DNA from: Candidatus Woesebacteria bacterium GW2011_GWC1_42_9
Lineage (GTDB): Bacteria > Patescibacteriota > Microgenomatia > UBA8517
Direction: 5' to 3'
Assembly (NCBI GenBank): GCA_000995185.1
Contig: LCET01000009.1
Coordinates: 1-45,812 of the forward strand
DNA: 45,812 nt
Shown: piece after piece, positions 18,086 through 39,494 of the stretch
Numbering within the stretch: the first letter of the stretch is position 1
Layout: each line of letters begins with the position of its first letter
The notes under the pieces: generated by a model
The model's database searches: none
Told to the model about the DNA's origin: nothing
What the model saw: only the letters and a program-made list of their open reading frames with translations
Made by a program: the position numbers and the translations under genes

Positions 18086-19725
18086 TGTAGATCCATTGTT
18101 ATAAATTGTTGAATATGATAAACTTCTTCTGTAATATTTACAAAATGCTCATCTGTAAATATAGGAACTTGAAAACCATTATATTCATTCCATTTTGTTA
18201 TATCTAAACTGATTGGCAAACCTTTGACTATATATGGCAATGGTAAACAAGTCAGAGACATTCTCTTTAGCGAAGACCTAGTAAATCTGTTGGAATTACA
18301 GGCATTAAATATTAATAAGATTATATTGTTGACATATAGATTGTTCCAGTAGAGGAGAGATGACCCAAGATCGGCTCCGGAATCAACACTGGGGTTAACA
18401 GCCCCGCCTGAGCCAATGGAGAGGATGTCGGTCGTGGCATCATAGGTAAGCCCGGTGTCGCCGGCGATCGTAGAGGTGCCGGTCCAGTAAGTAAGCTGGT
18501 TTGCAATTCCAGTACCGCCAGTCCCTAGCCCTTCGGTTGTCCAGGTGCTTCCATTATAGACATAGAAGATATTATCGTCGCTATCCCAGGCGATATATCC
18601 CTCTCCGGCAGCAGGGGCAGTAAGTGATGTACTTTGAGGTAATTTGAATCCTTGTGCAGCAGTATCATTGTGTAATATCGCGGATAGATCAAGTAGGGCC
18701 CCGTCGGCTAAAGTGATTGAAGTGGAGTAGGTCGTGGCACCTGAAAAGGTATATGCCCCCGAGGCGGTATCTCCGGAATTGAAAAGGTATTTGTCGTCAA
18801 GTGTCACCTCACCGCTACTTACTCCGAAGTAGCTATCGCTAAATTTAGCAATTCCCTTGTTGTCGGTACTGGCATCCTCTCCGGCGATGGTGACTTGATT
18901 GGCGGCGCCTCGGGTGATATCAATCCCTTCTCCGGAAATAAGATTTAGGATCGCTCCATCAATTAGGGCGTCTTGAGTTGTTCCGTCGGTGGCAAACGAC
19001 CATGATGTATATGTATCGATCCCAGTCAGGTTGGATCCATCTCCGAAGACTGCACCGGTTACTTCTAAATCTCCCGAAATAAATAAATCATTGGTAGCAT
19101 CCATGATGTCGGAAGTCGGAAGTTCGCCTTCATTTGCAAAAGCGCTATAGATATTTGAAGTAATTCCTCCTACTGAGAGACTGCCACCTATAGTAACATC
19201 ATTTTTTAGGTTTGTAGGTACGTTTACATTAAAAATTATGTCTTCTGAGGAGATAGACTCGGCTAAAACCCTCCGCTCTTGATATGAATGCTTGATTTCG
19301 CTTAAAATACTGCTCCTATCTCTGGAATTTGGGGAAAAGATTTCAAAAGCATAGTTTTGCAGGGAAGTGGTTCTTAGTATAACAAATAGTATTAAAGCAA
19401 TACAGAAGGCGAGTGCATAGCCTTTTAATACTCGTAAGCTGATGTTGCGATTTTCATTAATTTCAGAAGCAGAAGTCGTATCTAGCTCATAAATACTGGG
19501 GTTGGCATGCGGAGCCGGTATAGTTTTTGCCCTATTTTTCGAGGTTTTATAGGCCTTAAGGTCATTTAGCAGATATCTTCGGTGATTGCCAGTCGTTCTT
19601 TGTGGAATTATTTTACCCTCAATTTCCCATCTACGAAGAGTCTTTTTACTAACTTTTAAAAACTCCGCAGCCTCAGCAATCGTAAAACTGTGATTGGTCG
19701 ATTTATCGTTCAGCAGGTTCCTCAT
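18043..19725 (-). CDS. N-terminal segment of the giant surface protein: excisionase/MerR-type HTH, one TM helix, extracellular beta-rich region
   Basis: HTH at aa 13-57 (FTIAEAAEFLKVSKKTLRRWEIEGKIIPQRTTGNHRRYLLNDL). TM helix at aa 101-119. The extracellular part is Gly/Thr/Asp-rich. Only the first ~467 aa (to 18325) look genuinely coding; the last ~93 aa are read-through of the AT-rich insert. Confidence 0.8.
   Translation of the reverse strand: MRNLLNDKSTNHSFTIAEAAEFLKVSKKTLRRWEIEGKIIPQRTTGNHRRYLLNDLKAYKTSKNRAKTIPAPHANPSIYELDTTSASEINENRNISLRVLKGYALAFCIALILFVILRTTSLQNYAFEIFSPNSRDRSSILSEIKHSYQERRVLAESISSEDIIFNVNVPTNLKNDVTIGGSLSVGGITSNIYSAFANEGELPTSDIMDATNDLFISGDLEVTGAVFGDGSNLTGIDTYTSWSFATDGTTQDALIDGAILNLISGEGIDITRGAANQVTIAGEDASTDNKGIAKFSDSYFGVSSGEVTLDDKYLFNSGDTASGAYTFSGATTYSTSITLADGALLDLSAILHNDTAAQGFKLPQSTSLTAPAAGEGYIAWDSDDNIFYVYNGSTWTTEGLGTGGTGIANQLTYWTGTSTIAGDTGLTYDATTDILSIGSGGAVNPSVDSGADLGSSLLYWNNLYVNNIILLIFNACNSNRFTRSSLKRMSLTCLPLPYIVKGLPISLDITKWNEYNGFQVPIFTDEHFVNITEEVYHIQQFITMDLQCLPALIQMGSLIF
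18095..18324. other. 230-bp AT-rich insert interrupting the giant surface-protein reading frame
   Basis: Hand count gives 63 G+C in 230 nt (27%), versus more than 50% in the flanking coding DNA. AACAAT (minus strand) occurs at 18330-18325 and 18100-18095. Removing 230 nt joins ...LYWNNLYVNN to GSTMLASLDTNGQ... in frame. Confidence 0.6.
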
Positions 19726-20843: not shown

Positions 20844-21347
20844 ATGTTTTTAAATAGAATTATACAATTAGTTAGAGGTAGAAGAGGCCCTGTCGGCCCA
20901 AGCGGGAACGTCCAGTCGCCAGTAATTGTCTTAGTTCTTGATGGTTGGGGAATCGCCCCGCTGTCTCAAGGGAATGCAATTAGCTTGGCAAAGACTCCAA
21001 ACATGAGTAGCTACCTGAAGTATTTCCCTCACGGTGAGCTGATCGCGGCCGGCGAGTCTGTGGGGCTCCCTGCCGGTGAGGCTGGAAATTCCGAGGTAGG
21101 GCACTTGACTATGGGGGCAGGTAAACCAACTCCTCAGAGTCTGACAAGGATAAATCGATCTGTTAAAGACGGGTCGTTTCATAATAACGCCGCTTTTTTG
21201 AAGGCCGTAAATCATGTCAAGGTGAATGGATCAAAGCTCCATCTCATGGGAATGGTAGGTAGCGGAGGAGTACACTCGTCAATTGACCATTTTTATTCTT
21301 TGATTGGCGACATTAGCCGGCCGCTACTACGCTATGGACCGCGATAA
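20844..21347 (+). pseudogene. gpmI: 2,3-bisphosphoglycerate-independent phosphoglycerate mutase, N-terminal fragment
   Basis: VLDGWGIAP..., GNSEVGHLTMGAG and GGVHSSIDH match iPGM up to about residue 130. The frame then runs out into unrelated residues and a stop. Confidence 0.75.
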
Positions 21348-22425
21348 ACGCTGGGATCGCACCAGAAAAGCCTATGATGCCATCGTGCTTGGGAGGGGAG
21401 GACAGGCGGTTTCAGCAGAGGAGGCAATAAAAAGTTCTTTTGCCCAGGGCGTGACAGACGAATTTATTGCTCCAGTTGTGATTATGGAGGGGGGGAAGCC
21501 TGTGGCGACAGTTGACGATAACGACGCCGTAATCTTTTTTAATTTTAGAATTGATCGCCCAAGGCAATTGACGATGGCTTTTGTTCTTCCTGATTTTGAA
21601 AAGATTGAAGGAATTGAGGTGGAGGTGGCCCCGCACGAGGAAAATATTCCTAGAAGAAAGAAGGAGTTGATTAAAGGACCGACTTTTAAGCGAGAGAAAT
21701 GGCCTAAAAACCTCTATTTTGTAACAATGACTGAGTATCACCGCGATTTTCCGGTTAGCGCAATTGCTTTCCCTCCCTTGGTCGTAGAAAATCCTCTTCC
21801 TAAAATTCTCTCCCAAAGTAGTATGAAGCAGCTTTGTTTAGCAGAAAGCGAGAAAGAAAAGATGGTCACTTTTTATTACAATGGGATGCGCGCAAAGGGG
21901 TTTGAAGGCGAAGATGCGGTTATTATCCCGTCCCCAAAAGTGGCTACCTATGACAAAAAGCCGGAGATGAGTTTATTTAAGATTATTGATGAGTTTAAGC
22001 GTCAGATAGCAAGGCGCTACTATCATTTTGCATTTGTAAATTTTGCCAATGCCGACATGGTTGCTCATAGCGGGAACCTGAAGGCTTCGATAAAGGCTTG
22101 CGAGTATATCGATAAAGCGGTGGGGGAATTTGTAACTGTTGCCTTACAATATAATGCGACGGTGATCATTTCGGCTGACCATGGCAATGCCGAAGACTTG
22201 CTGTCTTATCCTAATAAGTCTTTTTTCTTCACAACCCAGGAGGGCACCACCAATACAGAGCACTCTGCAAATCCTGTTCCAGTATTAATTATCAATAATT
22301 CCCTGCGCGGGAAAGCTGTTACACTTGAGAAAGGGTCTTTGGCTGATATCGCGCCAACGGTACTAGGGCTATTTGGCCTGCCGGTGCCGCCTGAAATGGA
22401 GGGAAAAGATTTATTAAAACAATGA
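21304..22425 (+). pseudogene. gpmI: 2,3-bisphosphoglycerate-independent phosphoglycerate mutase, C-terminal fragment in a different frame
   Basis: Starts at TTG directly after an in-frame TGA. ATLAGRYYAMDRDKRWDR, SPKVATYDKKPEMS, NFANADMVAHSG and SADHGNAE match iPGM from about residue 180 onward. About 46 aa, including the DGRD substrate-binding segment, are missing between the fragments. Confidence 0.75.
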
Positions 22426-30876: not shown

Positions 30877-31653
30877 ATGATTAATAAAGACCGAAAAATA
30901 GTCAAAATATTAAAAGTAAATGTTTCTAGCATTCGAAGGAGTCAAGTGCTAGATGAAATTCGAGGTAGCCTCAAAAAAAATAAGAAGATTTTGATAGTGA
31001 CCCCAAATCCCGAGATAATGGTTCACGCTCAGGGGAGCAAAAAATTGCTTGTTTCTTTAAATTCTGCAGATATTTCCATCTGCGACGGGATTGGTTTATT
31101 ATGGGCTTTAAAGCTGCTGAAAAAAGAAGTTCCAGAGAGGTTTCGAGGTAGGGAACTAATGATAGATCTCCTTAAAATAGCCAATGATAGCAAGTTAAAG
31201 GTATATTTCTTAGGCGCATCAGATAGTGTTAATCGTAAAGCCGTTAATCTGGCAAAAGAAAAATATCCAAAGGCAAAGATCCTTGGCGCTAGCGGGCCAT
31301 GGTTAGATGATCAAGCAGATCCTGTAACTGATTTTTATAATAAGCATGAGATTGAAGTAGTTAATCATATAAACGATCAGAAACCGGCTATTTTGCTTGT
31401 TGCCTTTGGCGCACCAAAGCAGGAAATATGGGCCCATAAGTGGAGGAACAATTTAGATGTAACTGTTATCATGACGGTTGGAGGAGCTTTTGATTACTTT
31501 GCTGGTACAGCAGTGGTACCGCCAATATGGGTGGCGAGAGTGGGCTTAGAATGGCTATGGCGCCTTCTTAGAGAGCCGCGAAGATTTAAAAGAATAATTA
31601 ATGCTTTAGTAACTTTCCCGTTATTAGTCTTGAAGGAAAGATTTTTGGAATAG
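30877..31653 (+). CDS. WecB/TagA/CpsF-family glycosyltransferase
   Basis: 258 aa. Family-typical motifs IVTPNPEIMV, DGIGLLWA, FGAPKQEIW and GGAFDYFAG. Confidence 0.85.
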   Translation: MINKDRKIVKILKVNVSSIRRSQVLDEIRGSLKKNKKILIVTPNPEIMVHAQGSKKLLVSLNSADISICDGIGLLWALKLLKKEVPERFRGRELMIDLLKIANDSKLKVYFLGASDSVNRKAVNLAKEKYPKAKILGASGPWLDDQADPVTDFYNKHEIEVVNHINDQKPAILLVAFGAPKQEIWAHKWRNNLDVTVIMTVGGAFDYFAGTAVVPPIWVARVGLEWLWRLLREPRRFKRIINALVTFPLLVLKERFLE

Positions 31654-31674
31654 GTTAATAGACCGATAATTTGT

Positions 31675-31714
31675 AGCGGGTGCTTATTGAAAAAATTACT
31701 ATAAGCACCCTGCT
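31675..31714. terminator. strong hairpin between convergent genes (possible bidirectional terminator)
   Basis: GGGTGCTTAT (31678-31687) pairs perfectly with ATAAGCACCC (31701-31710) across a 13-nt A/T-rich loop. It is flanked by AGC/GCT. Confidence 0.5.
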
Positions 31715-31716
31715 GG

Positions 31717-31980
31717 TTACCAATACAGTCCAAACCAGCGCTTCTTAACCACCCGGAAATACTTGGTGGTGAAATCGCTATTTGGAACTACCACTTCGGC
31801 ATATCCGCCAATATAGCGTATACGCGGAGCGCCGGACCGGTCTATATTACGCACTTCCCAGATCTTTTGGGATAAAGGCCAGTCATTCTTTTTTGGAAAG
31901 AGCACGGCAGAATGATGTTTTCTGGTTCGAATGACTAGTATCCCCACTTTTGGGAGAATGCGTTTCTCGCCCCTAAACAT
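31717..31980 (-). CDS. hypothetical basic 87-aa protein
   Basis: ORF only. No family recognised. Confidence 0.45.
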   Translation of the reverse strand: MFRGEKRILPKVGILVIRTRKHHSAVLFPKKNDWPLSQKIWEVRNIDRSGAPRIRYIGGYAEVVVPNSDFTTKYFRVVKKRWFGLYW

Positions 31981-32101
31981 TGTGTTCTCCTTAATGTTCC
32001 AATGGTTATTGGGAGGATTGTAGTATATGTAGGGTTAATAGTCAATATTATGGGATGTATGCCGGATGGCGTGGTTGACTTGCCACCCGGCACAATATAG
32101 G

Positions 32102-32275
32102 TTAAACAATCTTGAAATGTTTCGAGCTAATGTAATTTCTGTGTAGCTCAAGACAATTGCCCAAGCTATCTGCGAGAGTTAAGGTGCCAGTAAGTTCTTC
32201 AAGATTTAACGGCGCGATGTTAACAAGCATCGTGCCTTCTTTCAATCTCGGATTTAGATCTGTTAAAGGTTCCAT
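32102..32275 (-). CDS. hypothetical 57-aa protein (below the ORF-track length cut-off)
   Basis: Hand translation gives MEPLTDLNPRLKEGTMLVNIAPLNLEELTGTLTLADSLGNCLELHRNYISSKHFKIV*. It lies in an otherwise empty 386-bp gap. Confidence 0.3.
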   Translation of the reverse strand: MEPLTDLNPRLKEGTMLVNIAPLNLEELTGTLTLADSLGNCLELHRNYISSKHFKIV

Positions 32276-32366
32276 TTCTAGCCTCCCAGAAATCTGCTTT
32301 CGATAGGTGGGATTATATCATCCTGAGAGTTCGTGAGAGAAAGGTTTTGTTATAATCTGAGAGCCA

Positions 32367-33611
32367 ATGAGAGATATTGAAATAAAATTACCAAAGGGTA
32401 CGAAAATTCCAAACCATGTCGCCATCATCCCTGATGGTAACCGCCGCTGGGCAAGGGCAAGGGGACTTCACACTTTGAAAGGCCACAAAGCAGGCTTTGA
32501 ACGCGCCGTGGAGCTAGCTCGCGCCGCTCGCAGGATGGGAGTGCATACGGTGACTTTATGGGGGTTTTCGACTGAGAATTGGGATCGCACCGAGGAGGAA
32601 GTGGGATATCTCATGAGACTATATGTAAAGTTAATCAACGATTATCTAAAAGAAGCGGATCAGGAGAAGGTGAGATTGGTACATTTGGGAAGGAAAGATC
32701 GGTTGCCAGAGTTTTTGGTAAAAAAAATTGTAGAGGCAGAAAAGTCCACTTTTAATAATCATAAATATGTTGTCAATTTGGCGATTGATTACGGCGGGCA
32801 TGATGAGATTATCCGTGCCGTTAAGGGGATGATCAAGGATGATATCCCGGAAAATAAAATTAACAAAAAGCTTTTTGAGAAATATTTAGACACTTGGGAC
32901 CAGCTCTATCCTTATGTTGATTTACTGATTAGGACTAGCGGAGAACAGCGGACAAGCGGGCTGTTATTGTGGCAGATGGAGTATGCCGAAATGTACTGGG
33001 AGGATGATCATTTTCCCGATTTTACGCCTGAAAAATTAAGAAATGCAATCCTTGATTACTCATGTAGGAGAAGGCGTTTTGGAGGGAATGACAACGAAGG
33101 GCACTTTAAGTTTAAACCAGAGGTGACAGCCAAATTGGAACTAGACTGGTGGAGGCTTGGGAATATCCCCGAGGGCACTAAGTTTAGGGAATATGCCGCG
33201 GCCCATATCCGCGAGCAATGGGGAGTTTCCAAATCATTGGCTAAAGAAGCCGGAGGACACTTGGTCCTTGCGACACTTGCAGGGGAGAAAAAGCACTGGA
33301 AGGAGGCCGCCGTAAGCCTTAAGAGATTTTATAGATTGATCCGGGATGAAGTGAAGCTTGCCTTTGAGCCGTCCCTGGCCGCTTCTCTTGGAGTTAAACT
33401 TTGGCAGAAACCGGATGAAGATACTCAGAGGAAATTTATCGCCGAAGTCTACCGGATCAGTGATTTCCAGGCGGCAAAGGCGGCACATTTGAGGTCCCTT
33501 GCTTCTAAAGAGAGAGTTCTTGCCGAAGCCGGGGAGGGCGATGAGCATTGGCAATTAGCAAAAGAGTATCTTCTGGAGTATTACAAAGCCCTCAAAGATC
33601 GAGTAGCCTAG
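32367..33611 (+). CDS. uppS: undecaprenyl-diphosphate synthase (cis-prenyltransferase) with a ~175-aa C-terminal helical extension
   Basis: HVAIIPDGNRRWA and RTSGEQRTSGLLLWQMEYAEMYW define the UppS core, ending at about aa 238. Aa 240-414 have no recognisable family. Confidence 0.9.
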   Translation: MRDIEIKLPKGTKIPNHVAIIPDGNRRWARARGLHTLKGHKAGFERAVELARAARRMGVHTVTLWGFSTENWDRTEEEVGYLMRLYVKLINDYLKEADQEKVRLVHLGRKDRLPEFLVKKIVEAEKSTFNNHKYVVNLAIDYGGHDEIIRAVKGMIKDDIPENKINKKLFEKYLDTWDQLYPYVDLLIRTSGEQRTSGLLLWQMEYAEMYWEDDHFPDFTPEKLRNAILDYSCRRRRFGGNDNEGHFKFKPEVTAKLELDWWRLGNIPEGTKFREYAAAHIREQWGVSKSLAKEAGGHLVLATLAGEKKHWKEAAVSLKRFYRLIRDEVKLAFEPSLAASLGVKLWQKPDEDTQRKFIAEVYRISDFQAAKAAHLRSLASKERVLAEAGEGDEHWQLAKEYLLEYYKALKDRVA

Positions 33612-33682
33612 GGATTTTTATGAAAAGTGGGGCTTGACGGCTCTGTCCCTGTTTGTTACTTTGTGATTAACTTAAGATTATT

Positions 33683-33889
33683 TTGATGGATAAAAAGAAG
33701 ATTAATATTAAAAGTCTCCCGGATCTCCTTACAGTACGCGAAGTGGCAGAGCTATTAAGAGTTTCCCCTTTGACGATCAAGCGCTGGGGAAAGCGCGGAA
33801 AGCTCCCGCCGATTAGGATCAATTCTCGCGGGGATAGGCGCTATAAAAAAGAAGCGGTTTTATATCTCCTGGGAATTCAAGAAAGCTAG
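33683..33889 (+). CDS. small excisionase/MerR-type helix-turn-helix DNA-binding protein
   Basis: 68 aa. LTVREVAELLRVSPLTIKRWGKRGKLPPIRINSRGDRRYKKEAV closely parallels the HTH at the N-terminus of the giant protein. Confidence 0.8.
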   Translation: MMDKKKINIKSLPDLLTVREVAELLRVSPLTIKRWGKRGKLPPIRINSRGDRRYKKEAVLYLLGIQES

Positions 33890-33921
33890 TTTACTTTAGG
33901 GCCTTCATAGTATAATTAGCC

Positions 33922-34782
33922 ATGCGCAAGTTAGTTATAGCACTGTTTATATTTTGTTTAGCGTTTTTTAGTTCTTCGGCGGTATCCGCCCAGCAAATTG
34001 GCCCGCTATTGGAAACTGAACCCACGATCACTCCGCGCCCGGATATTACTCAGACTACCGAGGAGGTCGCTGAGCCTTTGGGCAAGCTTTTGGAGTCACA
34101 AAAGCTTGGGGCGGTCTGGCCATTTAACCCGATAAAATATGCCATTCGCGCCTCGGTTGAGGTGGGGGTTGCTCCGACTACAGTAGTACTCCTCCTCCTT
34201 TTGCCGGTAATCGCCGCCTTTATCGCCGCAGCGAGGCACATTATTGGTCTTCGAGGTTTTGGAATATTTTTACCGGCGTCGCTTGCAATAGTGTTTTTGG
34301 CAATTGGGCCGGTCTTGGGGATACTTCTTTTTGTTGTGATCGTTGCGGTTTCGACCTTCTCGAGGCTAGTCCTTAGGAAAGCTAAGGTAAAACTACAGTA
34401 TTTGCCCAGGATGTCGCTTTTACTCCTTCTTGTTGTCATTGGGGTACTAAACATCTTGTTTTTGGCGCCGGTTTGGAAGTATCCGGACTTAACAAATGTC
34501 AGTATTTTCCCAGTTTTGATACTGGTGCTCCTGGCGGAGGACTTTTCAAAAGTACAGCTGGGAAAAAGCGCCCGCACCGCGGTCACCCTCGCAACGGAGA
34601 CTTTGATCCTTTCACTTTTGTCCTATACTTTCTTGATCATGGATCCATTGAGGGTGTTTGCGCTTCTTCATCCTGAGTCGCTTCTTGTGGCAGTTTTGGT
34701 TGTGGATTTGGTACTTGGGAAATACACTGGCCTGAGGGTAGCTGAATACTGGAGGTACCGAAAACTTCTTCGAGGCAAATAA
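33922..34782 (+). CDS. 7TM membrane protein of the type usually fused to an inactive transglutaminase (7TM_transglut-like)
   Basis: 286 aa. Signal peptide, ~70-aa exposed segment, then about seven TM helices with GLRGFGIFLPASLAIVF, LPRMSLLLLLVV, LLAEDFSKVQLGKS and C-terminal GLRVAEYWRYRKL. Confidence 0.75.
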   Translation: MRKLVIALFIFCLAFFSSSAVSAQQIGPLLETEPTITPRPDITQTTEEVAEPLGKLLESQKLGAVWPFNPIKYAIRASVEVGVAPTTVVLLLLLPVIAAFIAAARHIIGLRGFGIFLPASLAIVFLAIGPVLGILLFVVIVAVSTFSRLVLRKAKVKLQYLPRMSLLLLLVVIGVLNILFLAPVWKYPDLTNVSIFPVLILVLLAEDFSKVQLGKSARTAVTLATETLILSLLSYTFLIMDPLRVFALLHPESLLVAVLVVDLVLGKYTGLRVAEYWRYRKLLRGK

Positions 34783-34784
34783 CC

Positions 34785-36140
34785 ATGAAGGCATCAGCAA
34801 TATTAGGCTTAAATGCTCGTACGCAGCTCTTTTCTTACTCGCATAATAAATCTCACGGGAAGGGAGTGGCCGCTTCAAAGCTATGGACTTATCGGGTCCT
34901 ATCAAAGGTTGGTATGCCGACTCCTGAGATTTGCGCTAAGTTTATAAATCCGGGAGACATTTTAAATTATGATTGGTCGCGGCTTCCTTCAGCCTTTGCC
35001 TTAAAACCAAGTCGAGGACTGGGGGGAGAGGGGATCATTGTCGTCAAAAGAAGGGCCAAGGATGGAAATGGGTGGATGACCACAAGTAGGGAAAGGGTAA
35101 CTGCGGAGGACCTCAAACTTCATGCACTAGACATTCTTGAGGGGGCGTACAGTTTGAATAATGAGCCAGACATTGCCTTGGTGCAGGAGTATGTCGGGCG
35201 GCATAAGGCATTTAAGAAATATGCTTACCGCGGGACGCCTGATATCCGGGTAATTGTTTTTAATAAAGTGCCGGTGATGGCAATGCTAAGGCTTCCGACT
35301 AAGGATTCCGGAGGGAGGGCAAATCTTCACCAGGGGGCGCTTGGTGTCGGGATCGATATCGCCACAGGGATCACAACATATGCGATTTGGTATGGCGATT
35401 ATGTCAAATATAAGCCTGGCACAAAACGCAAGCTTCATGGGATAAAGATCCCAAATTGGACAAAAATATTGGAGACTGCCGTGAAAGCGCATGAAGTGGC
35501 AAAGCTTGGATATGCCGGCGTGGATATCGTCATCCATCCAAGCCGCGGACCGATGATCTTGGAACTTAATTATCAGCCAGGTCTTCAGATCCAGCTTGCC
35601 AATAAAGAGGGCTTAAGAAAACGCCTCGAGAGAGTTGAAGACCTTAAAGTACGTGACCCAGAGCATGGCGTACACATCGCAAAAGCTTTGTTTGCGGCAA
35701 GCTTTGCCCATCGGGTGAGGCCGAAAGATGAAATAAAGACCATCTCGGCACTCGAGGAAATTACAATTAAAGGGGTCGCGAAGGGGCAACGCAAGAAAGT
35801 GATGGCAAAAATCGATACCGGGGCGTACCGCACTTCAGTTGAATACAAAATTGCTAAAGAATTAGGGCTTCTCAGAAAGGAAAATATCTTTTTGACTACC
35901 CGGAGAGTGAGGAGCTCTTTAGGAGTTACCGAAAGACCAATTATAGGGTTCACTTTTTGGCTTGCCGGAAGGAAAATAAAAACTTATACTTCCGTAGCCA
36001 AGCGTGATAGGCTTCGCTATTCTGTAATCATCGGAAGACGTGATCTCAGCGGGTTTTTAGTTGATCCGTTAATTGAAAGTCATACGGAGGAGGCAGAAAA
36101 AAGAGTAATAGAAGCGGTAAATAAAAAAGATGGAAAATAA
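34785..36140 (+). CDS. fusion of an alpha-L-glutamate-ligase-related ATP-grasp enzyme and a retropepsin-like (COG4067 'Zn_protease') domain
   Basis: 451 aa. N-terminal ILGLNARTQLF..., KPSRGLGGEGIIVV, GTPDIRVIVFNKVPVMAMLRLPTKDSGGRANLHQGALGVGIDIATG and YAGVDIVIHPSRGPMILELNYQPGL. C-terminal (aa ~325-440) AKIDTGAYRTSV (D-T-G-A), VRSSLGVTERPII and VIIGRRDLSGFLVDP. Confidence 0.85.
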   Translation: MKASAILGLNARTQLFSYSHNKSHGKGVAASKLWTYRVLSKVGMPTPEICAKFINPGDILNYDWSRLPSAFALKPSRGLGGEGIIVVKRRAKDGNGWMTTSRERVTAEDLKLHALDILEGAYSLNNEPDIALVQEYVGRHKAFKKYAYRGTPDIRVIVFNKVPVMAMLRLPTKDSGGRANLHQGALGVGIDIATGITTYAIWYGDYVKYKPGTKRKLHGIKIPNWTKILETAVKAHEVAKLGYAGVDIVIHPSRGPMILELNYQPGLQIQLANKEGLRKRLERVEDLKVRDPEHGVHIAKALFAASFAHRVRPKDEIKTISALEEITIKGVAKGQRKKVMAKIDTGAYRTSVEYKIAKELGLLRKENIFLTTRRVRSSLGVTERPIIGFTFWLAGRKIKTYTSVAKRDRLRYSVIIGRRDLSGFLVDPLIESHTEEAEKRVIEAVNKKDGK

Positions 36141-37029
36141 CTTATTGATAGTGACCGGCGGCCCGGTAAGTAAGATTGAGCCGTTTGTCGAGCAGGCTGG
36201 GAAACTCGGGGTAAAACTCACGATTGCTTCATTTTCTGATCTTGAGTTTCAAAGCGGTGGTAAATATGAGCTGAAAATATTGGGTCGCGACGTGCGTGGA
36301 TTTGACGTATTATATATTCGTTTAGTCGGGAAGCGCTTGGAGGACGCCACGCTTCTGGCGCGATATGCAAAGGAGAAAGGCTTAAGGGTAGTCGATAAAC
36401 ATTACGGCAGTGCTCATATGATGCCGGTTTCATTAAGCAAGGCAATTGAGCTTTCGCTCCTAATTGAGAATAATATCCCCACCCCTGCGACTTATTTTGG
36501 GAGCTTAGAGAATATTAAGAATAAAGCGGGAGGGGTGGTCGGGTTCCCATTTGTCCTTAAAAGCACCTCCGGTAAAAAGGCGCGTGAAGTCTGGTCGCCA
36601 GAGACCCACGAAGAATTGGATGAATTGATGAATAAGCTTGCTAAGGAAGAGAAAGAAGGGAAGCGTTTTTTTGCACAAGAATTTACTAAGGCAAGCCAGA
36701 GAGTGAGGGTGTTTGTGCTTGGGGATAGGGCTATTGGGGCAATTACCAGGCCTACAAAGTGGAGAAAGCGGTTTATAGAGAAAGTTAATGGAGAATACCC
36801 GGAGGGGGAAAAGAAGGCTGTTTATCCAGTCCCTGAAAAGTATGAGGCGCTTGCTGTAAGAGCGGCAAAAGCAGTAGAGATAGACATCGCCGGAGTTGAT
36901 CTTGCCGAAGATGAGAATGGTAAGATGGTTGTCTGGGAAGTAAATTCTGCTCCTGCCTGGAAGGCGGTTTCCAAAGACACAGGGATAAATGTGGAAGAGG
37001 AGATATTAAAATGGATTCTCAAAAAGTAA
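36130..37029 (+). CDS. RimK/LysX-family ATP-grasp ligase
   Basis: 299 aa. FPFVLKSTSGKKAREV, FAQEFTKASQRVRVFVLGDRAIGAITR and IAGVDLAEDENGKMVVWEVNSAPAW. Overlaps the upstream gene by 11 nt. Confidence 0.8.
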   Translation: MENNLLIVTGGPVSKIEPFVEQAGKLGVKLTIASFSDLEFQSGGKYELKILGRDVRGFDVLYIRLVGKRLEDATLLARYAKEKGLRVVDKHYGSAHMMPVSLSKAIELSLLIENNIPTPATYFGSLENIKNKAGGVVGFPFVLKSTSGKKAREVWSPETHEELDELMNKLAKEEKEGKRFFAQEFTKASQRVRVFVLGDRAIGAITRPTKWRKRFIEKVNGEYPEGEKKAVYPVPEKYEALAVRAAKAVEIDIAGVDLAEDENGKMVVWEVNSAPAWKAVSKDTGINVEEEILKWILKK

Positions 37030-37643
37030 AGAAAATCTATCAGAAAAAGTTTGAAAAGCATGGGGTAGACCCTAAAAGTCTTTTTTGGGCAAGGAAAGGG
37101 GCCGCTCACCAGCGCTTCAGACAAATTTGGGCTGAGGTAGATTTTAATGGTAAATCGGTATTAGATGTTGGCTGCGGTTTTGGGGAGATGGCCAAATTTT
37201 TAGACAAGCGCTACAAGATTAAAAGCTATACGGGGGTGGACATCGTCCCGGAATTTATCGCGGAAGCCAAAAAAAACTTTCCCCATCACAAATTTATTGC
37301 CTGCGATTATTTTTCCAAGCCTCTCTCTGAGAAATTTGATGTGGTGATGGCAAGCGGGACCCTCAATTCAAATATAGAGGACGGCATGTCCGCCAATGGG
37401 GCGGGGAATATGGATTTTCGCAAAAAGGCAATTAAGGCCATGTTTGAGCATGCCAATATAGTGTGCTCTTTTAATATGCTTGGGGGTCATCCTCAGCCGG
37501 AAAATAGGGACGATAACCATGTCTGGTATGCTGATTCGTTGGAAATATTAGAATATTGCATGAGCCTCACCAGGCGGGTGATTTTGAGGCACCACTACAA
37601 CCCTAAAGACTTCACGATCTTCATGTATCCGGTGAAAAGCTAG
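37011..37643 (+). CDS. class I SAM-dependent methyltransferase
   Basis: 210 aa. Motif I VLDVGCGFGEMAKFL and motif post-II FDVVMASGTL. Overlaps the upstream gene by 19 nt. Confidence 0.8.
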   Translation: MDSQKVKKIYQKKFEKHGVDPKSLFWARKGAAHQRFRQIWAEVDFNGKSVLDVGCGFGEMAKFLDKRYKIKSYTGVDIVPEFIAEAKKNFPHHKFIACDYFSKPLSEKFDVVMASGTLNSNIEDGMSANGAGNMDFRKKAIKAMFEHANIVCSFNMLGGHPQPENRDDNHVWYADSLEILEYCMSLTRRVILRHHYNPKDFTIFMYPVKS

Positions 37644-37699
37644 GGGAATTTATCATCTTATAGTATAATAAATAAGTTCAATAGTGATAGGAGAAATTC

Positions 37700-38308
37700 A
37701 TGAACTTTGAAGATTGGCTGAAGGAGTTTGTAGAAACCGGGAAAGTTTGGCGAAATGGCCTGGTGGAGGTTTCGCTACAGTTTGTGTGTTTTGGAGCTGA
37801 TTTCAGAAATCTTTCTGATGAAGGGATAGCCTCCCTCAGGAAATATACCAATGAGGGCAAGGCTTTGGGCGTGCGCGAGGTCTGGGGTGGTAAATTTGAT
37901 GCTTATAAAGCCTGGACTAAGCAATTTATCGCAGAGTATGAAGCCGAGCATGGGATTGAGCTGCCGGCGCTTGTGCCGAGCGGGCGGAAGAACTCGGGGA
38001 TGATCCAGTTTTTTGGCGAGCTCACCGCTTTTGCGGCAGGAGTAATGTCTATCTCTGAGTTTACGCTATTTATGGAGGCAAGAATTCTAAACGGCCGTCT
38101 CTGGGAAGAAGGGCGTAAAGATGAGCGTGTGCGTGTGAACGTGCCGACTTCCGATAAGCCGATCTTGTTGTCGTCTTTCCCGCCAAGCTTCCCGCTCGCG
38201 GCCTGGGAATTTACTGCCGGTGGTGAGAGATTCTCTCGATTTTACCCGCCGGCAGTAGTTATTAGGCTTGCTTGGCTACCCACCCCGTTCCTTTCAAGAT
38301 ATCATTGA
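37700..38308 (+). CDS. hypothetical protein
   Basis: 202 aa. AGGAG Shine-Dalgarno 6 nt upstream and TATAAT at about 37664. No family recognised. Confidence 0.55.
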   Translation: MNFEDWLKEFVETGKVWRNGLVEVSLQFVCFGADFRNLSDEGIASLRKYTNEGKALGVREVWGGKFDAYKAWTKQFIAEYEAEHGIELPALVPSGRKNSGMIQFFGELTAFAAGVMSISEFTLFMEARILNGRLWEEGRKDERVRVNVPTSDKPILLSSFPPSFPLAAWEFTAGGERFSRFYPPAVVIRLAWLPTPFLSRYH

Positions 38309-38504
38309 GGTCAGGATTGCCATCTTCATGGTCAATTGACCCTACTAAAATTTTTGCTTCGTGATATTCCTCATCAGGCGTTTCGTAGCTGACGATGAAA
38401 TCACCAAACCTCTCCTCTGGCCCGTGCGCAGCGGATATGTTCCGATATCCCTGCGAGGCTAACCAATAGGCGATTACACTCTTAATGCAATCTCTATCCA
38501 ACAT
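38262..38504 (-). CDS. hypothetical acidic 80-aa protein
   Basis: GAGGG Shine-Dalgarno upstream. Converges on and overlaps the 37700 gene by 47 nt. No family recognised. Confidence 0.45.
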   Translation of the reverse strand: MLDRDCIKSVIAYWLASQGYRNISAAHGPEERFGDFIVSYETPDEEYHEAKILVGSIDHEDGNPDLNDILKGTGWVAKQA

Positions 38505-38547
38505 TTCAAACCCTCACTTTACTAGCCGATGGAAATATTCTACCAGA

Positions 38548-38949
38548 TTATTTCAACTCGACTGCGGCTCCGGCTGTTTTTAAAGCTTCTTCTGCTTTTT
38601 TAGCATCTTCTGCCTTGGCATCTTTGACAATTTCGGATGGAACTTGCTCAGTCATATCTTTGGCTTCTTTAAGTCCCCAGTTTTGATTAATCTCACGAAG
38701 TGCTTTTATGACAGCAATCTTGTTTGTGCCTGCACTAGTCATGACAACTGTCTTTGTGGCGCTTTCTTCATCTTTCTTTGCTTCGCCCTCTGCTGGTGCT
38801 CCTGCTGGCGCAGCCATTTGCGGGACGACGGCTGAGACTCCGAGTTTATCTTGAAGTTCTGTGACTAATTCACTAAGCTCCAAAACACTAAGTTTTGAGA
38901 TTTCATCAACTAATTTTGATACGGCTTTTGATTCTTTTTTATCTGCCAT
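38548..38949 (-). CDS. rplL: 50S ribosomal protein L7/L12
   Basis: 133 aa. N-terminal dimerisation helix, Ala/Glu/Pro hinge, C-terminal KIAVIKALREI...GLKEAKD...AGAAVELK. Confidence 0.95.
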   Translation of the reverse strand: MADKKESKAVSKLVDEISKLSVLELSELVTELQDKLGVSAVVPQMAAPAGAPAEGEAKKDEESATKTVVMTSAGTNKIAVIKALREINQNWGLKEAKDMTEQVPSEIVKDAKAEDAKKAEEALKTAGAAVELK

Positions 38950-38951
38950 GT

Positions 38952-39494
38952 TTAGTCACCTCCTTTGTCTGCTTTTGATTTCAAAATATAGATTAATTTC
39001 TGTAAATTTCCTTCTAGAGTGCCGACTAGTCCATACATTGGCCCAGCAATTGCACCCACTACCTGTCCGGCTAGTACCTCGCGAGTAGGAAGCTTGCTTA
39101 TGGCCAAAAGCCCTGTTTCATTTAGAAATTTCCCCTCAATGATCCCTGCTTTGAGTTTTGGAGCTTCAAATTCTTTGATAAATTTACCAAGAGCTTGGAT
39201 GGGGCTAATGGCATCTTCATTTGCAAAGATAAGTGCGGTTTGACCGGTGAGAATGTCTTCACTTAAAACTTCATCGCTAATTTCGGCTTTTTTTCCAGCG
39301 AGGTTTATGAGAGTGTTTTTAGCGACGATCATTCGTGCTCCAGCTTCGGTGAGCTTTTCTCGAAGCGTTGAGAGGGCGCTCATCCCCATCCCGGAGTAGT
39401 CAACCATCACGAGAGACTTGGCCTTTTTAATATCACTGGCCAAGTTGTCAACAGCTTCTTTTTTTTCTTGTTTTATTTTAGCTACAGGTGCCAT
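38952..39494 (-). CDS. rplJ: 50S ribosomal protein L10
   Basis: MAPVAKIKQEKKEAVDNLA...VMVDYSGMGMSALSTLREKLTEAGARMIVAKNTL. ATG 39494 is preferred over the track's TTG at 39506, which lies in the U-tract of the leader hairpin. Confidence 0.92.
   Translation of the reverse strand: MAPVAKIKQEKKEAVDNLASDIKKAKSLVMVDYSGMGMSALSTLREKLTEAGARMIVAKNTLINLAGKKAEISDEVLSEDILTGQTALIFANEDAISPIQALGKFIKEFEAPKLKAGIIEGKFLNETGLLAISKLPTREVLAGQVVGAIAGPMYGLVGTLEGNLQKLIYILKSKADKGGD

What the first reader, a model, noticed from the sequence alone, without database searches (positions are those of the whole stretch)
33683..37643. Five-gene HTH / 7TM / ATP-grasp-retropepsin fusion / RimK-like ATP-grasp / methyltransferase operon: candidate membrane-associated peptide-ligase system
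Seen in the sequence: five same-strand genes are packed with 3-nt spacing or 11- and 19-nt overlaps, which implies co-translation. They encode (a) a 68-aa excisionase-type HTH. (b) A signal-peptide-bearing 7TM protein whose motifs match the 7TM module normally fused to an inactive transglutaminase, but without the transglutaminase domain. (c) An alpha-L-glutamate-ligase-related ATP-grasp (LRLPTKDSGGRANLHQGALGVGID) fused in one polypeptide to a retropepsin-like domain with an intact D-T-G-A motif. (d) A second, RimK/LysX-like ATP-grasp. (e) A class I SAM methyltransferase. Established knowledge: RimK adds poly-alpha-glutamate tails to ribosomal protein S6, and in Pseudomonas it is partnered by the retropepsin-like RimB. 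Comparative genomics of ATP-grasp amidoligases also linked the alpha-E-ligase-related ATP-grasp, the 7TM/inactive-transglutaminase protein and COG4067 peptidases into a conserved but biochemically uncharacterised system. Inference: this compact version has ligase and peptidase fused, a second ligase, a methyltransferase and a dedicated HTH. It could build, trim and methylate a peptide tag or small peptide at the membrane. The product and target are unknown.
Basis: partly seen in the sequence, partly recalled or inferred. Interest (0 to 1): 0.78.

Follow-up and report, generated by a model that had tools for sequence, protein, structure and literature searches.

The report
Membrane-docked peptide ligase–protease gene cluster
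This is a candidate-phylum (Woesebacteria) version of the recently named Rlo/Rim systems: a membrane protein, an ATP-driven amino-acid ligase fused to a retrovirus-type protease, and optional extra ligases and a methyltransferase, which probably build and trim a short acidic peptide at the membrane; what they make is still unknown.

Summary
The five genes exist as described and every domain call holds up in profile searches. The conserved unit differs from the one proposed.

- **Core.** Across 86 related Microgenomates loci the invariant core is a 7TM protein (RloB-like, without the transglutaminase ectodomain) followed by an RloC-type ATP-grasp fused to a retropepsin. The 7TM gene is adjacent in 76 of 77 loci.
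- **Variable part.** Downstream lie 0-3 or more RimK-family ligases of several subfamilies.
- **Window's sub-module.** The window's ligase subtype usually travels with the methyltransferase (17 of 18 adjacent).
- **HTH.** It is a very conserved BldC/excisionase-type neighbour, often kilobases away, so it is not a dedicated regulator.
- **Independent support.** The 7TM is fused to the ligase in a Halobacterium plasmid ORF. Ligase–retropepsin–ligase and ligase–degenerate retropepsin–MATCAP carboxypeptidase fusions occur in other genomic contexts.
- **Closest known systems.** These are RloABC of Pseudomonas (2025) and RimK/RimB, including the RimBK hybrid.

This is a new variant of a known kind. 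The mechanism is inferred and the product is unknown.

The parts
33683..33889 (+). 68-aa excisionase/BldC-type HTH protein. It is a conserved syntenic neighbour and probably not a dedicated part of the system.
   Evidence: HTH_17 2.7e-11, TIGR01764 33 bits (cut-off 28.8), HTH_BldC 45 bits (cut-off 77). Median identity is 87% across loci. It is adjacent to the 7TM gene (gap of 92 nt or less) in only 17 of 40 loci that have it.
33922..34782 (+). RloB-like 7TM membrane protein without the inactive-transglutaminase ectodomain. Layout: signal-like segment aa 1-23, acidic P/T/S-rich ectodomain of about 60 aa, 7 TM segments aa 86-265 (34177-34716), basic C-terminal tail inside the cell.
   Evidence: PF14402 3e-23 and the RloB model NF052267 matched only over positions 313-507 of 508. 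It is 28% identical to the 7TM half of a Legionella RloB-like protein. Topology comes from hydropathy and the positive-inside rule. A hydrophobic N-terminal segment is present in 106 of 120 homologues. The gene lies directly upstream of the fusion in 76 of 77 loci.
34785..36140 (+). 451-aa cytoplasmic fusion protein: an RloC-type ATP-grasp amidoligase, a linker and a retropepsin domain.
   Evidence: The AF2 model has mean pLDDT 82 with two folded domains and a disordered linker at aa 305-316. There are 437 GTDB species loci.
34842..35684 (+). ATP-grasp ligase domain (aa ~20-300), of the TIGR02291/ATPgrasp_ST type.
   Evidence: PF14397 220 bits. TIGR02291 251.6 bits (cut-off 314.2). It is 38.6% identical to the RloC-like protein of a Legionella rloABC-type operon, E 4e-52. 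Foldseek best matches are ArgX, RimK and LysX. The K74-P75..G80-G81-x-G83, D247 and E260-x-N262 columns are invariant.
35736..36065 (+). Retropepsin (RimB/RloA-like, PF05618) domain, aa ~318-427. It has no cysteines and no signal peptide, so it is cytoplasmic.
   Evidence: A profile of the C-domains hits the RloA structures 9G59 (1.2e-5) and 9G58 (3.6e-5) and 2PMA (7.8e-3). 19 of 19 homologous domains hit PF05618. hhalign against the Legionella RloA-like protein gives E 4e-5; the window domain lacks about 25-30 aa that RloA carries between the DTG motif and the RP motif.
35814..35825 (+). Catalytic D-T-G-A motif of the retropepsin domain (D344).
   Evidence: Translation. D[TS]G[AS] is present in 120 of 120 closest homologues. 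K342, R384 and R407 align with the basic poly-Glu-contacting positions of RloA (PMC12239564).
36130..37029 (+). Accessory RimK-family ATP-grasp ligase of a divergent subfamily. It overlaps the fusion gene by 11 nt.
   Evidence: PF08443 2.6e-22. TIGR00768 122 bits (cut-off 143). Best PDB hit is E. coli RimK at 4e-13. The subfamily replaces the FR(S/A)N..GG loop with PTKWRKRF plus an insert. It is only 26-29% identical to the RK_A/RK_B ligase pair found in most relatives.
37011..37643 (+). Class I SAM-dependent methyltransferase. It overlaps the ligase gene by 19 nt.
   Evidence: Methyltransf_25 4.5e-13. It is adjacent to the window-type ligase in 17 of the 18 loci that have both. The substrate class cannot be resolved.
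37700..38308 (+). Orphan 202-aa protein ('U202'), a likely sixth and optional member. The window copy carries a non-conserved C-terminal extension of about 30 aa.
   Evidence: Homologues follow the methyltransferase in 9 of the 12 loci that have it. Only 27 homologues were found and all are unnamed. The AF2 model has pLDDT 88 and pTM 0.83 and is all-alpha. No PDB fold match was found; best E-value 0.74. No Pfam or NCBIfam hit.

Best explanation
The locus is the Microgenomates (Woesebacteria) form of the RloB–RloC–RloA / RimK–RimB type of module.

**Shown**
- A 7-TM membrane protein, the RloB core without its transglutaminase-like ectodomain, is encoded 2 nt upstream of a cytoplasmic enzyme.
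- In that enzyme an RloC-type ATP-grasp ligase is fused to a retropepsin with an intact active site.
- The pair is almost invariably followed by RimK-family ligases, which vary in number and type.

**Inferred by analogy with RimK/RimB and RloA**
- The ATP-grasp domain uses ATP to add amino acids, most likely glutamate, stepwise to a carboxylate. This builds an acidic peptide or peptide tail.
- The retropepsin domain dimerises, activates the ligase and cuts or limits the product.
- The 7TM protein docks the enzyme on the inner face of the membrane. It either exports the product or presents the acceptor.
- The downstream divergent ligase, the methyltransferase and the 202-aa protein form an optional sub-module that extends and caps the product by methylation.

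The HTH protein is a conserved neighbouring DNA-binding protein, not the system's own regulator. The product and the acceptor are unknown.
For: **Domain identities**
- Searches confirm all domains.
- The window proteins are homologous to all three proteins of a canonical rloABC-type operon on a Legionella plasmid.

**Core linkage**
- The 7TM gene is directly upstream of the fusion in 76 of 77 loci, with a gap of 35 nt or less in 64. At least one RimK-type ligase is adjacent downstream in 75 of 81 loci.
- The same linkage occurs in unrelated genomic contexts (L090, L091).

**Rosetta-stone fusions**
- 7TM fused to ATP-grasp in Halobacterium sp. DL1 and in 4 cluster representatives.
- Ligase–retropepsin–second ligase in 2 representatives.

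**A peptidase appears to be obligatory**
- The Microgenomates family keeps D[TS]G[AS] in 120 of 120 homologues.
- The roughly 800-aa relatives have lost the DTG motif in 37 of 40 cases. They have gained a MATCAP-type metallocarboxypeptidase domain with an invariant HExxxH..E motif.

**Poly-Glu reading**
- K342, R384 and R407 align with the conserved basic poly-Glu contacts of RloA and are invariant or nearly so.

**Literature**
- RloA cleaves poly-Glu of 8 residues or more, and deleting rloB or rloC suppresses the phenotype of the triple rloA1-3 deletion (PMC12239564).
- RimB stimulates the RimK ATPase about fourfold and is needed for poly-alpha-Glu synthesis. A RimBK hybrid is proteolytically active (PMC11957791).

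**Translational coupling**
- The genes are separated by a 2-nt gap and by overlaps of 11 and 19 nt. Overlaps of 4 nt are common in relatives.
Against: - No product, acceptor or activity is known, even for RloC or RloB in Pseudomonas.
- The fusion scores below NCBIfam's TIGR02291 cut-off (251.6 against 314.2).
- The retropepsin domain is shorter than RloA in the segment between the DTG and RP motifs, by about 25-30 aa. It is also cytoplasmic, unlike secreted RloA, so its substrate rules may differ.
- The window's accessory ligase lacks the canonical RimK substrate loop.
- Much of the conservation within Microgenomates could reflect inherited synteny, because the locus always sits next to rplL-rplJ (76 of 81 loci).
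- Pfam names the ligase family 'sugar-transfer associated', and one relative is fused to a YdjC-type deacetylase. This points towards a glycan acceptor.
- An export role for the 7TM protein is pure inference.
Confidence: 0.55

Rival explanations
1. The ligases amidate a cell-envelope glycopolymer or a peptidoglycan/lipid-linked precursor. They would attach amino acids to a sugar-acid or stem-peptide carboxylate, or to a de-acetylated amino sugar. The 7TM protein would act as a flippase or membrane scaffold, and the peptidase would edit the side chains.
For: - The Pfam family name ATPgrasp_ST means 'sugar-transfer associated'.
- There is conserved synteny with MreB, a WecG/TagA glycosyltransferase and UppS.
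- One relative has the fusion joined to a YdjC-type deacetylase domain (P0275). A YdjC gene and a GT2 gene lie near the cluster in L006.
- rlo mutants in Pseudomonas show cell-shape, ampicillin and hypo-osmotic phenotypes (PMC12239564).
- A Shewanella RloB-homologue mutant overproduces membrane vesicles (PMC12096838).
- The variable ligase complement resembles the diversity seen in surface polymers.
Against: - Both attached peptidase types act on peptide chains (RimB/RloA-type retropepsin, MATCAP-type carboxypeptidase), which fits peptide products.
- The MreB/WecG/UppS synteny is lineage-specific. It is absent in L001, L003, L090 and L091.
- No glycosyltransferase lies inside the tightly packed block.
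Confidence: 0.22
2. It is an ordinary rimK–rimB ribosomal protein S6 polyglutamylation pair that happens to sit next to unrelated genes. Under this reading the convergent rplJ-rplL neighbours hint at a ribosomal role.
For: - A RimK-family ligase and a cytosolic, cysteine-free retropepsin are present.
- The locus is always next to rplL-rplJ (76 of 81 loci).
Against: - The retropepsin is fused to the ATPgrasp_ST/TIGR02291 ligase, which scores 220 bits there against 36 bits for Pfam RimK. It is not fused to the RimK-type one.
- Both ligases score far below the S6-ligase equivalog NF007764: 23 and 50 bits against a cut-off of 331.
- The 7TM gene is linked in 76 of 77 loci and is fused to the ligase in other organisms.
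- rplL is on the opposite strand.
- The same module occurs away from ribosomal genes.
Confidence: 0.06
3. It is a RiPP-type cluster (graspetide-like: ATP-grasp, protease, methyltransferase and exporter acting on a gene-encoded precursor), or a methylation-associated defence system (MADS).
For: - The gene set superficially resembles a RiPP cluster.
- PsnB appears among distant Foldseek matches.
- The plantazolicin N-methyltransferase BamL is a weak hit of the methyltransferase.
- PADLOC mad1 and mad2 models hit the HTH (43 bits) and the methyltransferase (48 bits).
Against: - No precursor-sized conserved ORF fits in the gaps, which are 32 nt, 2 nt and two overlaps.
- The only small ORF nearby (38262-38504, minus strand) is not conserved in any of 89 loci.
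- The graspetide maturase model scores only 22.5 bits against a cut-off of 350.
- The MADS hits are generic domain matches. The mad2 match covers profile positions 290-385 of 492, and no other MADS component is present.
Confidence: 0.03
4. The RimK-family ligase works in amino-acid or cofactor metabolism: a LysX/ArgX carrier-protein pathway, or MptN/CofF-type glutamyl tailing of a cofactor.
For: The LysX, MptN and CofF models give E-values from 1e-10 to 1e-29 with protein 4.
Against: - All scores are far below the family cut-offs: 102 against 276, 93 against 350, 41 against 300.
- No LysW-like carrier gene and no LysZ, LysY, LysJ or LysK genes are in the window or in the 86 loci.
- The canonical substrate loop is absent.
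- From general knowledge, CPR genomes lack these pathways.
Confidence: 0.02

Closest known systems
RloABC operon of Pseudomonas aeruginosa (Lormand et al., mBio 2025, PMC12239564). It is the named form of the ATP-grasp / 7TM-inactive-transglutaminase / COG4067 system predicted by Iyer, Abhiman, Burroughs and Aravind in 2009. That citation is from my own knowledge; the paper is not held.
   Same: - The same three modules are present: a 7TM_transglut membrane protein, an ATPgrasp_ST/TIGR02291 ligase and a PF05618 retropepsin with a DTG motif and conserved basic substrate contacts.
- The modules are tightly linked.
- The window proteins are homologous to all three proteins of a canonical operon of this type in Legionella.
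   Different: - There is no transglutaminase-like ectodomain, only a roughly 60-aa acidic linker.
- The retropepsin is fused to the C-terminus of the ligase, so it is cytoplasmic. It has no signal peptide and no disulfide cysteines.
- The segment between the DTG and RP motifs is shorter.
- Extra RimK-family ligases, a methyltransferase and an orphan protein are attached.
- The host is a Patescibacteria lineage. The 2025 paper reported that 96% of RloB hits were in Proteobacteria.
RimK/RimB and the RimBK hybrid of Desulfotalea psychrophila (Little et al., JBC 2025, PMC11957791)
   Same: - A cytosolic retropepsin is physically coupled to an ATP-grasp alpha-amino-acid ligase.
- The retropepsin has no cysteines, like RimB.
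- The precedent shows that such a hybrid is an active protease and that the protease partner stimulates the ligase.
   Different: - The domain order is reversed: ligase N-terminal here, RimB N-terminal in RimBK.
- The fused ligase belongs to the RloC clade, not to RimK.
- A 7TM partner is obligatory here.
- Nothing here points specifically to ribosomal protein S6 as the target (its C-terminus was not checked).
Relatives found here: 7TM fused to ATP-grasp (Halobacterium sp. DL1 plasmid), and ATP-grasp–retropepsin-like–MATCAP and ATP-grasp–retropepsin–ATP-grasp fusions (metagenomic, probably CPR)
   Same: They have the same ligase clade at 35-48% identity, the same upstream 7TM gene, and accessory RimK ligases nearby.
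   Different: - The window keeps an active-looking retropepsin and has no MATCAP domain.
- The window's accessory ligase is a separate gene.
- The window's 7TM protein has neither a PKD nor a transglutaminase ectodomain.
Eukaryotic tubulin tail code (TTL/TTLL ATP-grasp ligases with MATCAP/VASH/CCP peptidases). This is an analogy only, from my own knowledge.
   Same: ATP-grasp ligases add Glu or Tyr to acidic C-terminal tails and dedicated peptidases remove them. A MATCAP-family domain is fused to this ligase clade in relatives.
   Different: There is no homology of substrates and no evidence of a protein-tail acceptor here. The window itself has no MATCAP domain.

Membership tests
RloABC system | RloC-type cytoplasmic ATP-grasp (PF14397 ATPgrasp_ST / TIGR02291) | tested here: met
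   PF14397 scores 220.3 bits against a cut-off of 31.4. The domain is 38.6% identical to the RloC-like protein of a Legionella operon, E 4e-52. Caveat: TIGR02291 scores 251.6 bits, below its strict cut-off of 314.2.
RloABC system | RloB 7-TM module (PF14402) | tested here: met
   83 bits against a cut-off of 25, covering profile positions 58-247 of 248. It is 28% identical to the 7TM half of Legionella RloB.
RloABC system | RloB periplasmic inactive-transglutaminase domain (PF14400) | tested here: not met
   There is no PF14400 hit, and the RloB model NF052267 is matched only at positions 313-507 of 508. The ectodomain is about 60 aa. The Legionella control does show PF14400.
RloABC system | RloA retropepsin fold with a catalytic DTG motif and basic poly-Glu contacts | tested here: met
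   D[TS]G[AS] is present in 120 of 120 homologues. K342, R384 and R407 are conserved.
RloABC system | RloA is secreted: it has a signal peptide and a conserved disulfide pair | tested here: not met
   The domain is C-terminal to an ATP-grasp domain in one polypeptide that has no hydrophobic segment. The domain contains no cysteine (sequence).
RloABC system | Role in hypo-osmotic tolerance, cell shape and biofilm, with rloB/rloC epistatic to rloA | not testable with these tools
   This needs genetics, and the organisms are uncultured.
RimK/RimB (S6 polyglutamylation) | Ligase is the S6–L-glutamate ligase equivalog (NF007764) | tested here: not met
   The fusion scores 23.4 bits and protein 4 scores 50 bits, against a cut-off of 331. 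Protein 4 lacks the FRSNLHRGG-type loop.
RimK/RimB (S6 polyglutamylation) | RpsF with an acidic C-terminus as acceptor | not tested
   rpsF was not found among the ORFs annotated in the window, although not every ORF was scanned.
RimBK hybrid | RimB domain at the N-terminus of a RimK-clade ligase | tested here: not met
   The order here is ligase then retropepsin, and the ligase is of the RloC clade.
Class I SAM-dependent methyltransferase | Rossmann-type SAM-binding domain | tested here: met
   Methyltransf_25 scores 50.1 bits against a cut-off of 27, and Methyltransf_11 scores 44.6 against 21.2. No equivalog-level assignment was possible.
Excisionase/BldC-type HTH | Excisionase-family HTH domain; BldC subfamily | tested here: inconclusive
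   TIGR01764 scores 33 bits, above its cut-off of 28.8, so the domain test is met. HTH_BldC scores 45 bits, below its cut-off of 77, so the subfamily test is not met.
MADS defence system | mad1-mad8 gene set | tested here: not met
   Only generic mad1 (HTH) and partial mad2 (methyltransferase core) hits were found. The other four proteins have no PADLOC hit.

The most novel reading that the evidence does not exclude
The conserved 7TM + ligase–protease core is the membrane platform of a modular, non-ribosomal peptide assembly line built from stand-alone ATP-grasp ligases. Loci carry 1-5 ATP-grasp domains, and these are swapped between lineages. Each ligase would add a defined residue, with methylation as a cap. 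The result would be a lineage-variable acidic peptide that is exported to, or attached at, the surface of these ultra-small episymbiotic bacteria. Such a peptide would be a diversifying envelope or host-interaction determinant. The orphan 202-aa protein would be a new accessory fold.
Probability: 0.2. Interest if true: 0.8.

Novelty: new variant of a known kind. Interest (0 to 1): 0.55.

Why it matters
The product and the mechanism of RloB and RloC are unknown even in Pseudomonas, although the operon affects antibiotic tolerance, cell shape and biofilm formation.

The variants described here give natural 'Rosetta-stone' evidence on three points:
- The 7TM protein and the ligase act as one membrane machine.
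- The peptidase partners the ligase physically. When its active site decays, another peptidase (MATCAP-type) replaces it.
- Extra RimK-type ligases belong to the same machine.

This makes the open question of what Rlo-type systems synthesise more tractable. A single soluble ligase–protease polypeptide and a small 7TM protein could be expressed and assayed.

The work also shows that genome-reduced Patescibacteria keep up to five ATP-grasp domains at one locus, which suggests an important function, possibly at the cell surface. Several database annotations look wrong by these domain analyses: 'ATP-dependent zinc protease', 'ketopantoate hydroxymethyltransferase', and an unannotated haloarchaeal ORF.

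Tried and rejected
- **Single-sequence PDB search of the fusion's C-domain.** It was too weak (E 0.22). A profile of 19 homologous domains was needed.
- **Foldseek with the whole fusion model.** It returned only ATP-grasp enzymes, so the small domain was swamped.
- **Promoter and terminator scan of 33400-38700.** It found fewer or no more sites than shuffled sequence gives, so it is uninformative. Two exact TATAAT boxes were seen by eye but were not tested for conservation.
- **Rfam scan of 31500-39000.** No RNA family was found.
- **MADS defence reading.** Rejected: only generic domain hits.
- **RiPP precursor search.** Rejected: there is no space between the genes, and the only nearby small ORF is not conserved.
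- **LysX/ArgX or cofactor-tailing reading.** Rejected on scores and context.
- **7TM C-terminal tail as the acceptor.** Judged unlikely, because in four representatives and in Halobacterium that terminus is fused to the ligase and is not free.
- **Orphan 202-aa protein.** No Pfam, NCBIfam, PADLOC, PDB-sequence or PDB-fold match was found.
- **Iyer et al. 2009 (PMC3268129).** The paper could not be read because it is not held.
- **Literature searches.** Searches for DUF1704/MATCAP together with ATP-grasp, and for this fusion in Patescibacteria, found nothing relevant.

Full report
**1. Observation**

- a 68-aa HTH protein, 33683-33889;
- a 286-aa membrane protein, 33922-34782;
- a 451-aa protein, 34785-36140;
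- a 299-aa protein, 36130-37029;
- a 210-aa protein, 37011-37643.

The gaps are 32 nt and 2 nt, followed by overlaps of 11 and 19 nt. The last four genes are therefore packed as for translational coupling, while the HTH gene is slightly set apart.

Pfam and NCBIfam confirm each assignment:
- HTH_17/MerR and the excisionase domain TIGR01764;
- 7TM_transglut (3e-23), matching only the 7-TM part of the profile, with no transglutaminase domain;
- ATPgrasp_ST (4e-65) and TIGR02291 'alpha-L-glutamate ligase-like' (9e-75, although below that model's strict cut-off);
- RimK (2.6e-22);
- Methyltransf_25 (4.5e-13).

The retropepsin call was the weakest. PF05618 scores 23.4 bits in the whole protein, below the cut-off of 27. 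Three further results support it:
- The isolated C-domain reaches the cut-off, and all 19 homologous C-domains tested hit PF05618.
- A profile of those domains hits the RloA crystal structures 9G59 and 9G58 (1e-5) and 2PMA. The mBio paper identifies 9G58 and 9G59 as RloA orthologues.
- D[TS]G[AS] is present in 120 of 120 close homologues.

Hydropathy gives a signal-like N-terminus, a roughly 60-aa acidic P/T/S-rich ectodomain, seven TM segments and a basic C-terminal tail. This means N-terminus outside and C-terminus inside.

**2. The organism and how widespread the fusion is**

The fusion has thousands of relatives, with 5214 at E below 1e-5 among the candidates scored. The closest are 60-72% identical, and those that carry a name are from Candidatus Woesebacteria or Patescibacteria. 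A scan of GTDB species genomes found 437 loci. The best 80 are Woesebacteria, Microgenomates, Blackburnbacteria or Woykebacteria MAGs. Many records titled 'uncultured Gammaproteobacteria' share the same synteny and are probably mislabelled. The rest of the window has typical CPR content: LeuRS, ArgRS, ComEA/ComEC, ATP synthase, MreB, WecG and UppS.

**3. What the conserved unit really is**

I called ORFs in 86 loci and compared them with the window's proteins.

| Feature | Count |
|---|---|
| 7TM gene directly upstream of the fusion | 76 of 77 |
| of these, gap of 35 nt or less | 64 |
| At least one RimK-family ligase adjacent downstream | 75 of 81 |
| Ligase genes between the fusion and rplL: 0 / 1 / 2 / 3 | 3 / 28 / 39 / 11 loci |
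| Methyltransferase present | 27 of 81 |
| Loci with the window's ligase subtype | 29 |
| of these, with the methyltransferase | 18 (17 adjacent, usually overlapping) |

The ligase numbers are an undercount. A further divergent ATP-grasp family and 613-aa tandem double ligases also occur.

The ligases fall into several subfamilies. Most genomes carry a pair, RK_A and RK_B. The window carries a single ligase of a different subfamily, only 26-29% identical to either member of the pair. This subfamily has replaced the canonical FR(S/A)N..GG loop with PTKWRKRF plus an insert. It keeps the ATP-binding Lys and the Mg-binding D/E/N positions.

Homologues of the next gene in the window, the 202-aa ORF at 37700-38308, follow the methyltransferase in 9 of the 12 loci that have it. 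It is therefore a probable sixth, optional member. It belongs to a small orphan family of 27 sequences. Its model is confident and all-alpha (pLDDT 88, pTM 0.83), with no PDB fold match.

The HTH behaves differently. It is 87% identical across species in the median, comparable to MreB at 83% and well above the fusion at 63%. It is adjacent to the 7TM gene in only 17 of 40 loci and lies 311-4785 nt away in the other 23. I read it as a conserved BldC/excisionase-type DNA-binding protein that is a syntenic neighbour, not a dedicated regulator.

**4. Is the linkage functional or just inherited synteny?**

Within Microgenomates the whole block sits at a fixed place. It is convergent with rplL-rplJ in 76 of 81 loci and often lies downstream of MreB–WecG–UppS. 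Conservation inside that clade alone is therefore weak evidence. Four independent lines remove the doubt.

- **(a) A canonical operon as reference.** A plasmid of Legionella adelaidensis carries a canonical operon: a PF05618 retropepsin, a transglutaminase+7TM protein and an ATPgrasp_ST ligase. Its three proteins are homologous to the three modules in the window. In Pseudomonas this operon is rloABC, and deleting rloB or rloC suppresses the defects of the triple rloA1-3 deletion (PMC12239564).
- **(b) 7TM–ligase fusions.** An unannotated 584-aa ORF on a Halobacterium sp. DL1 plasmid fuses a 7TM module, without the transglutaminase domain, to the ligase. Four of the best 150 cluster representatives do the same. 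This ties the cytoplasmic C-terminus of the 7TM protein to the N-terminus of the ligase. It also makes the 7TM tail an unlikely acceptor.
- **(c) Architectures among representatives.** An exhaustive search of 1.84 billion representatives gave the following among the best 150:

| Architecture | Representatives |
|---|---|
| Ligase alone | 48 |
| Ligase + retropepsin | 51 |
| Ligase + retropepsin-like + MATCAP (PF08014), about 800 aa | 44 |
| Ligase + retropepsin + second ATP-grasp | 2 |
| Ligase + retropepsin + YdjC | 1 |

- **(d) Other genomic contexts.** Two of these relatives sit in quite different contexts: between RuvC and TyrRS/PBP, and between GalT and RuvAB. Each still has a 7TM gene immediately upstream, one of them with a PKD ectodomain. 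One is also flanked by RimK-type ligases and a DUF3541 protein.

**5. A telling contrast**

In the MATCAP-containing proteins the retropepsin-like domain has lost its DTG motif in 37 of 40 cases. The MATCAP domain in these proteins keeps an invariant HExxxH…E metal and catalytic signature in 40 of 40. The Microgenomates family has no MATCAP domain and keeps DTG in 120 of 120.

I infer that the system needs a peptidase activity. I also infer that the retropepsin fold has a second, structural role next to the ligase. This matches the published finding that RimB binds RimK, raises its ATPase about fourfold and is required for poly-alpha-glutamate synthesis, and that a natural RimBK hybrid is an active protease (PMC11957791).

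The window's retropepsin domain is RimB-like in being cytosolic and free of cysteines, whereas RloA has a signal peptide and a disulfide. It keeps the K-x-D-T-G, R-P and R positions that align with the poly-Glu contacts K46/D48/R114/R137 of RloA. It lacks about 25-30 aa that RloA carries between the DTG and RP motifs.

**6. Most likely mechanism**

*Shown:* the domain identities, the fusion, the membrane topology prediction, the translationally coupled packing, and the conserved and independently recurring linkage.

*Inferred:*
- The RloC-type ATP-grasp activates a carboxylate with ATP and adds amino acids one at a time, most likely glutamate. This follows from the family name and the conserved poly-Glu-type contacts of the attached protease.
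- The retropepsin dimerises (retropepsins are obligate dimers), stimulates the ligase, and limits or releases the product.
- The 7TM protein holds the enzyme at the membrane and exports the product or presents the acceptor. In Pseudomonas the protease is periplasmic and the ligase cytoplasmic, so something must cross the membrane there.
- The accessory ligase, the methyltransferase and the 202-aa protein extend and cap the product.

I put about 0.55 on this package. Confidence in the identity part is much higher, about 0.85. It is much lower for glutamate, for export and for capping individually.

**7. Rivals**

- **Glycopolymer or peptidoglycan acceptor (0.22).** This is the main rival. It draws on the Pfam label 'sugar-transfer associated', the envelope-gene synteny, the YdjC fusion and the envelope phenotypes of rlo mutants and of a Shewanella RloB mutant (PMC12096838). 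Two peptide-directed peptidase types argue for peptide products, and the envelope synteny is lineage-specific.
- **Plain rimK–rimB S6 system (0.06).** Unlikely, given the model scores, the obligatory 7TM partner and occurrence away from ribosomal genes.
- **RiPP, MADS, LysX or cofactor readings.** Rejected.

**8. Comparison, novelty and score**

This is not a member of RloABC in the strict sense. Two defining features fail: the transglutaminase ectodomain and a secreted protease. It is not a RimBK hybrid either, because the domain order and the ligase clade are wrong. It works like both.

It is a new variant of a known kind. The proteins are in public databases but are unnamed or misnamed, as 'ATP-dependent zinc protease' or 'ketopantoate hydroxymethyltransferase'. 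I found no paper describing this architecture, the variable ligase cassette, the MATCAP variants or the orphan sixth gene.

Interest is moderate, at 0.55. The finding is not categorically new. It does offer a tractable route to the unknown chemistry of Rlo-type systems, and it points to a possibly diversifying product in CPR bacteria.

Noticed in passing
window 37700-38308 (+): An orphan 202-aa protein family with only 27 homologues, all unnamed. The AF2 model is confident and all-alpha, with no PDB fold match. Conserved motifs are KPSGRKNSGMIQFFGELTAFAAG and VPTxxxPILLSSFPPGFP. The window copy has a non-conserved C-terminal extension of about 30 aa that overlaps a non-conserved minus-strand ORF (38262-38504).
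   Followed up: yes
window 32367-33611 (+): The undecaprenyl-diphosphate synthase (UppS) carries a C-terminal extension of about 170 aa with no Pfam match; Pfam covers only aa 21-239 of 414. The long form (408-458 aa) is conserved across the related loci.
   Followed up: no
L090 4990-7377 and 3436-4980; P0274, P0292 and about 40 other representatives: Proteins of about 800 aa fuse an ATP-grasp, a degenerate retropepsin (DTG lost in 37 of 40) and a MATCAP/DUF1704-type metallocarboxypeptidase (HExxxH..E invariant). They are preceded by a 7TM protein that in L090 has a PKD ectodomain. This is a bacterial ligase/carboxypeptidase pairing reminiscent of tubulin tail tyrosination and detyrosination.
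   Followed up: partly
L089 4164-5918 (Halobacterium sp. DL1 plasmid CP007061.1, 106086-107009 region): An unannotated 584-aa ORF fuses a 7TM_transglut module, without the transglutaminase domain, to an ATPgrasp_ST ligase. It is an archaeal instance of the module.
   Followed up: partly
L026 8122-9087 (-), L046, L074, L078, L091 9672-10607 (-): A DUF3541 protein recurs among the accessory genes next to the fusion and the RimK-type ligases, in two different genomic contexts. It may be another system component.
   Followed up: partly
L001 10340-11053, L064, L073, L080, L087; L001 6553-6930 and L005 6573-6944: IS200/Y1-type transposase genes sit in the variable stretch between the ligases and rplL. 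A small PF05635 (23S_rRNA_IVP) gene is inserted between the 7TM gene and the fusion in two loci. The region behaves as an insertion hot spot.
   Followed up: no
window 33910-33915 and 37664-37669: Exact TATAAT hexamers lie 6 nt upstream of the 7TM ATG, which could mean a leaderless or very short-leader transcript separate from the HTH gene. Another lies upstream of the 202-aa gene, which also has an AGGAGA ribosome-binding site. The consensus scan did not report either, and conservation was not tested.
   Followed up: no
window 20844-21347 and 21304-22425 (+): A cofactor-independent phosphoglycerate mutase (iPGM) is split into two overlapping ORFs of 167 and 373 aa, each matching complementary parts of the Metalloenzyme and iPGM_N profiles. 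This is a frameshift, a pseudogene or an assembly error.
   Followed up: no
window 18043-19725 (-): A second excisionase/MerR-type HTH (aa 14-62) forms the N-terminus of a 560-aa protein that is otherwise unannotated. It sits next to large FG-GAP surface-protein genes.
   Followed up: no
window 31654-32366: A stretch of about 700 nt between the WecG/TagA gene and UppS has no long ORF. Relatives carry NUDIX and small hypothetical genes there (L002, L007). It may be a decayed remnant.
   Followed up: no
L010, L013, L015, L018 and many other loci: Many GTDB species-representative MAGs titled 'uncultured Gammaproteobacteria bacterium' (and one each titled Alphaproteobacteria and Woesearchaeota) carry the Woesebacteria-type locus and synteny. 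The record titles are probably wrong.
   Followed up: no
window 33683-33889 and 37011-37643: The PADLOC models mad1 and mad2 of the methylation-associated defence system hit the HTH and the methyltransferase. These are generic domain matches and could cause false defence-system calls in automated annotation.
   Followed up: yes
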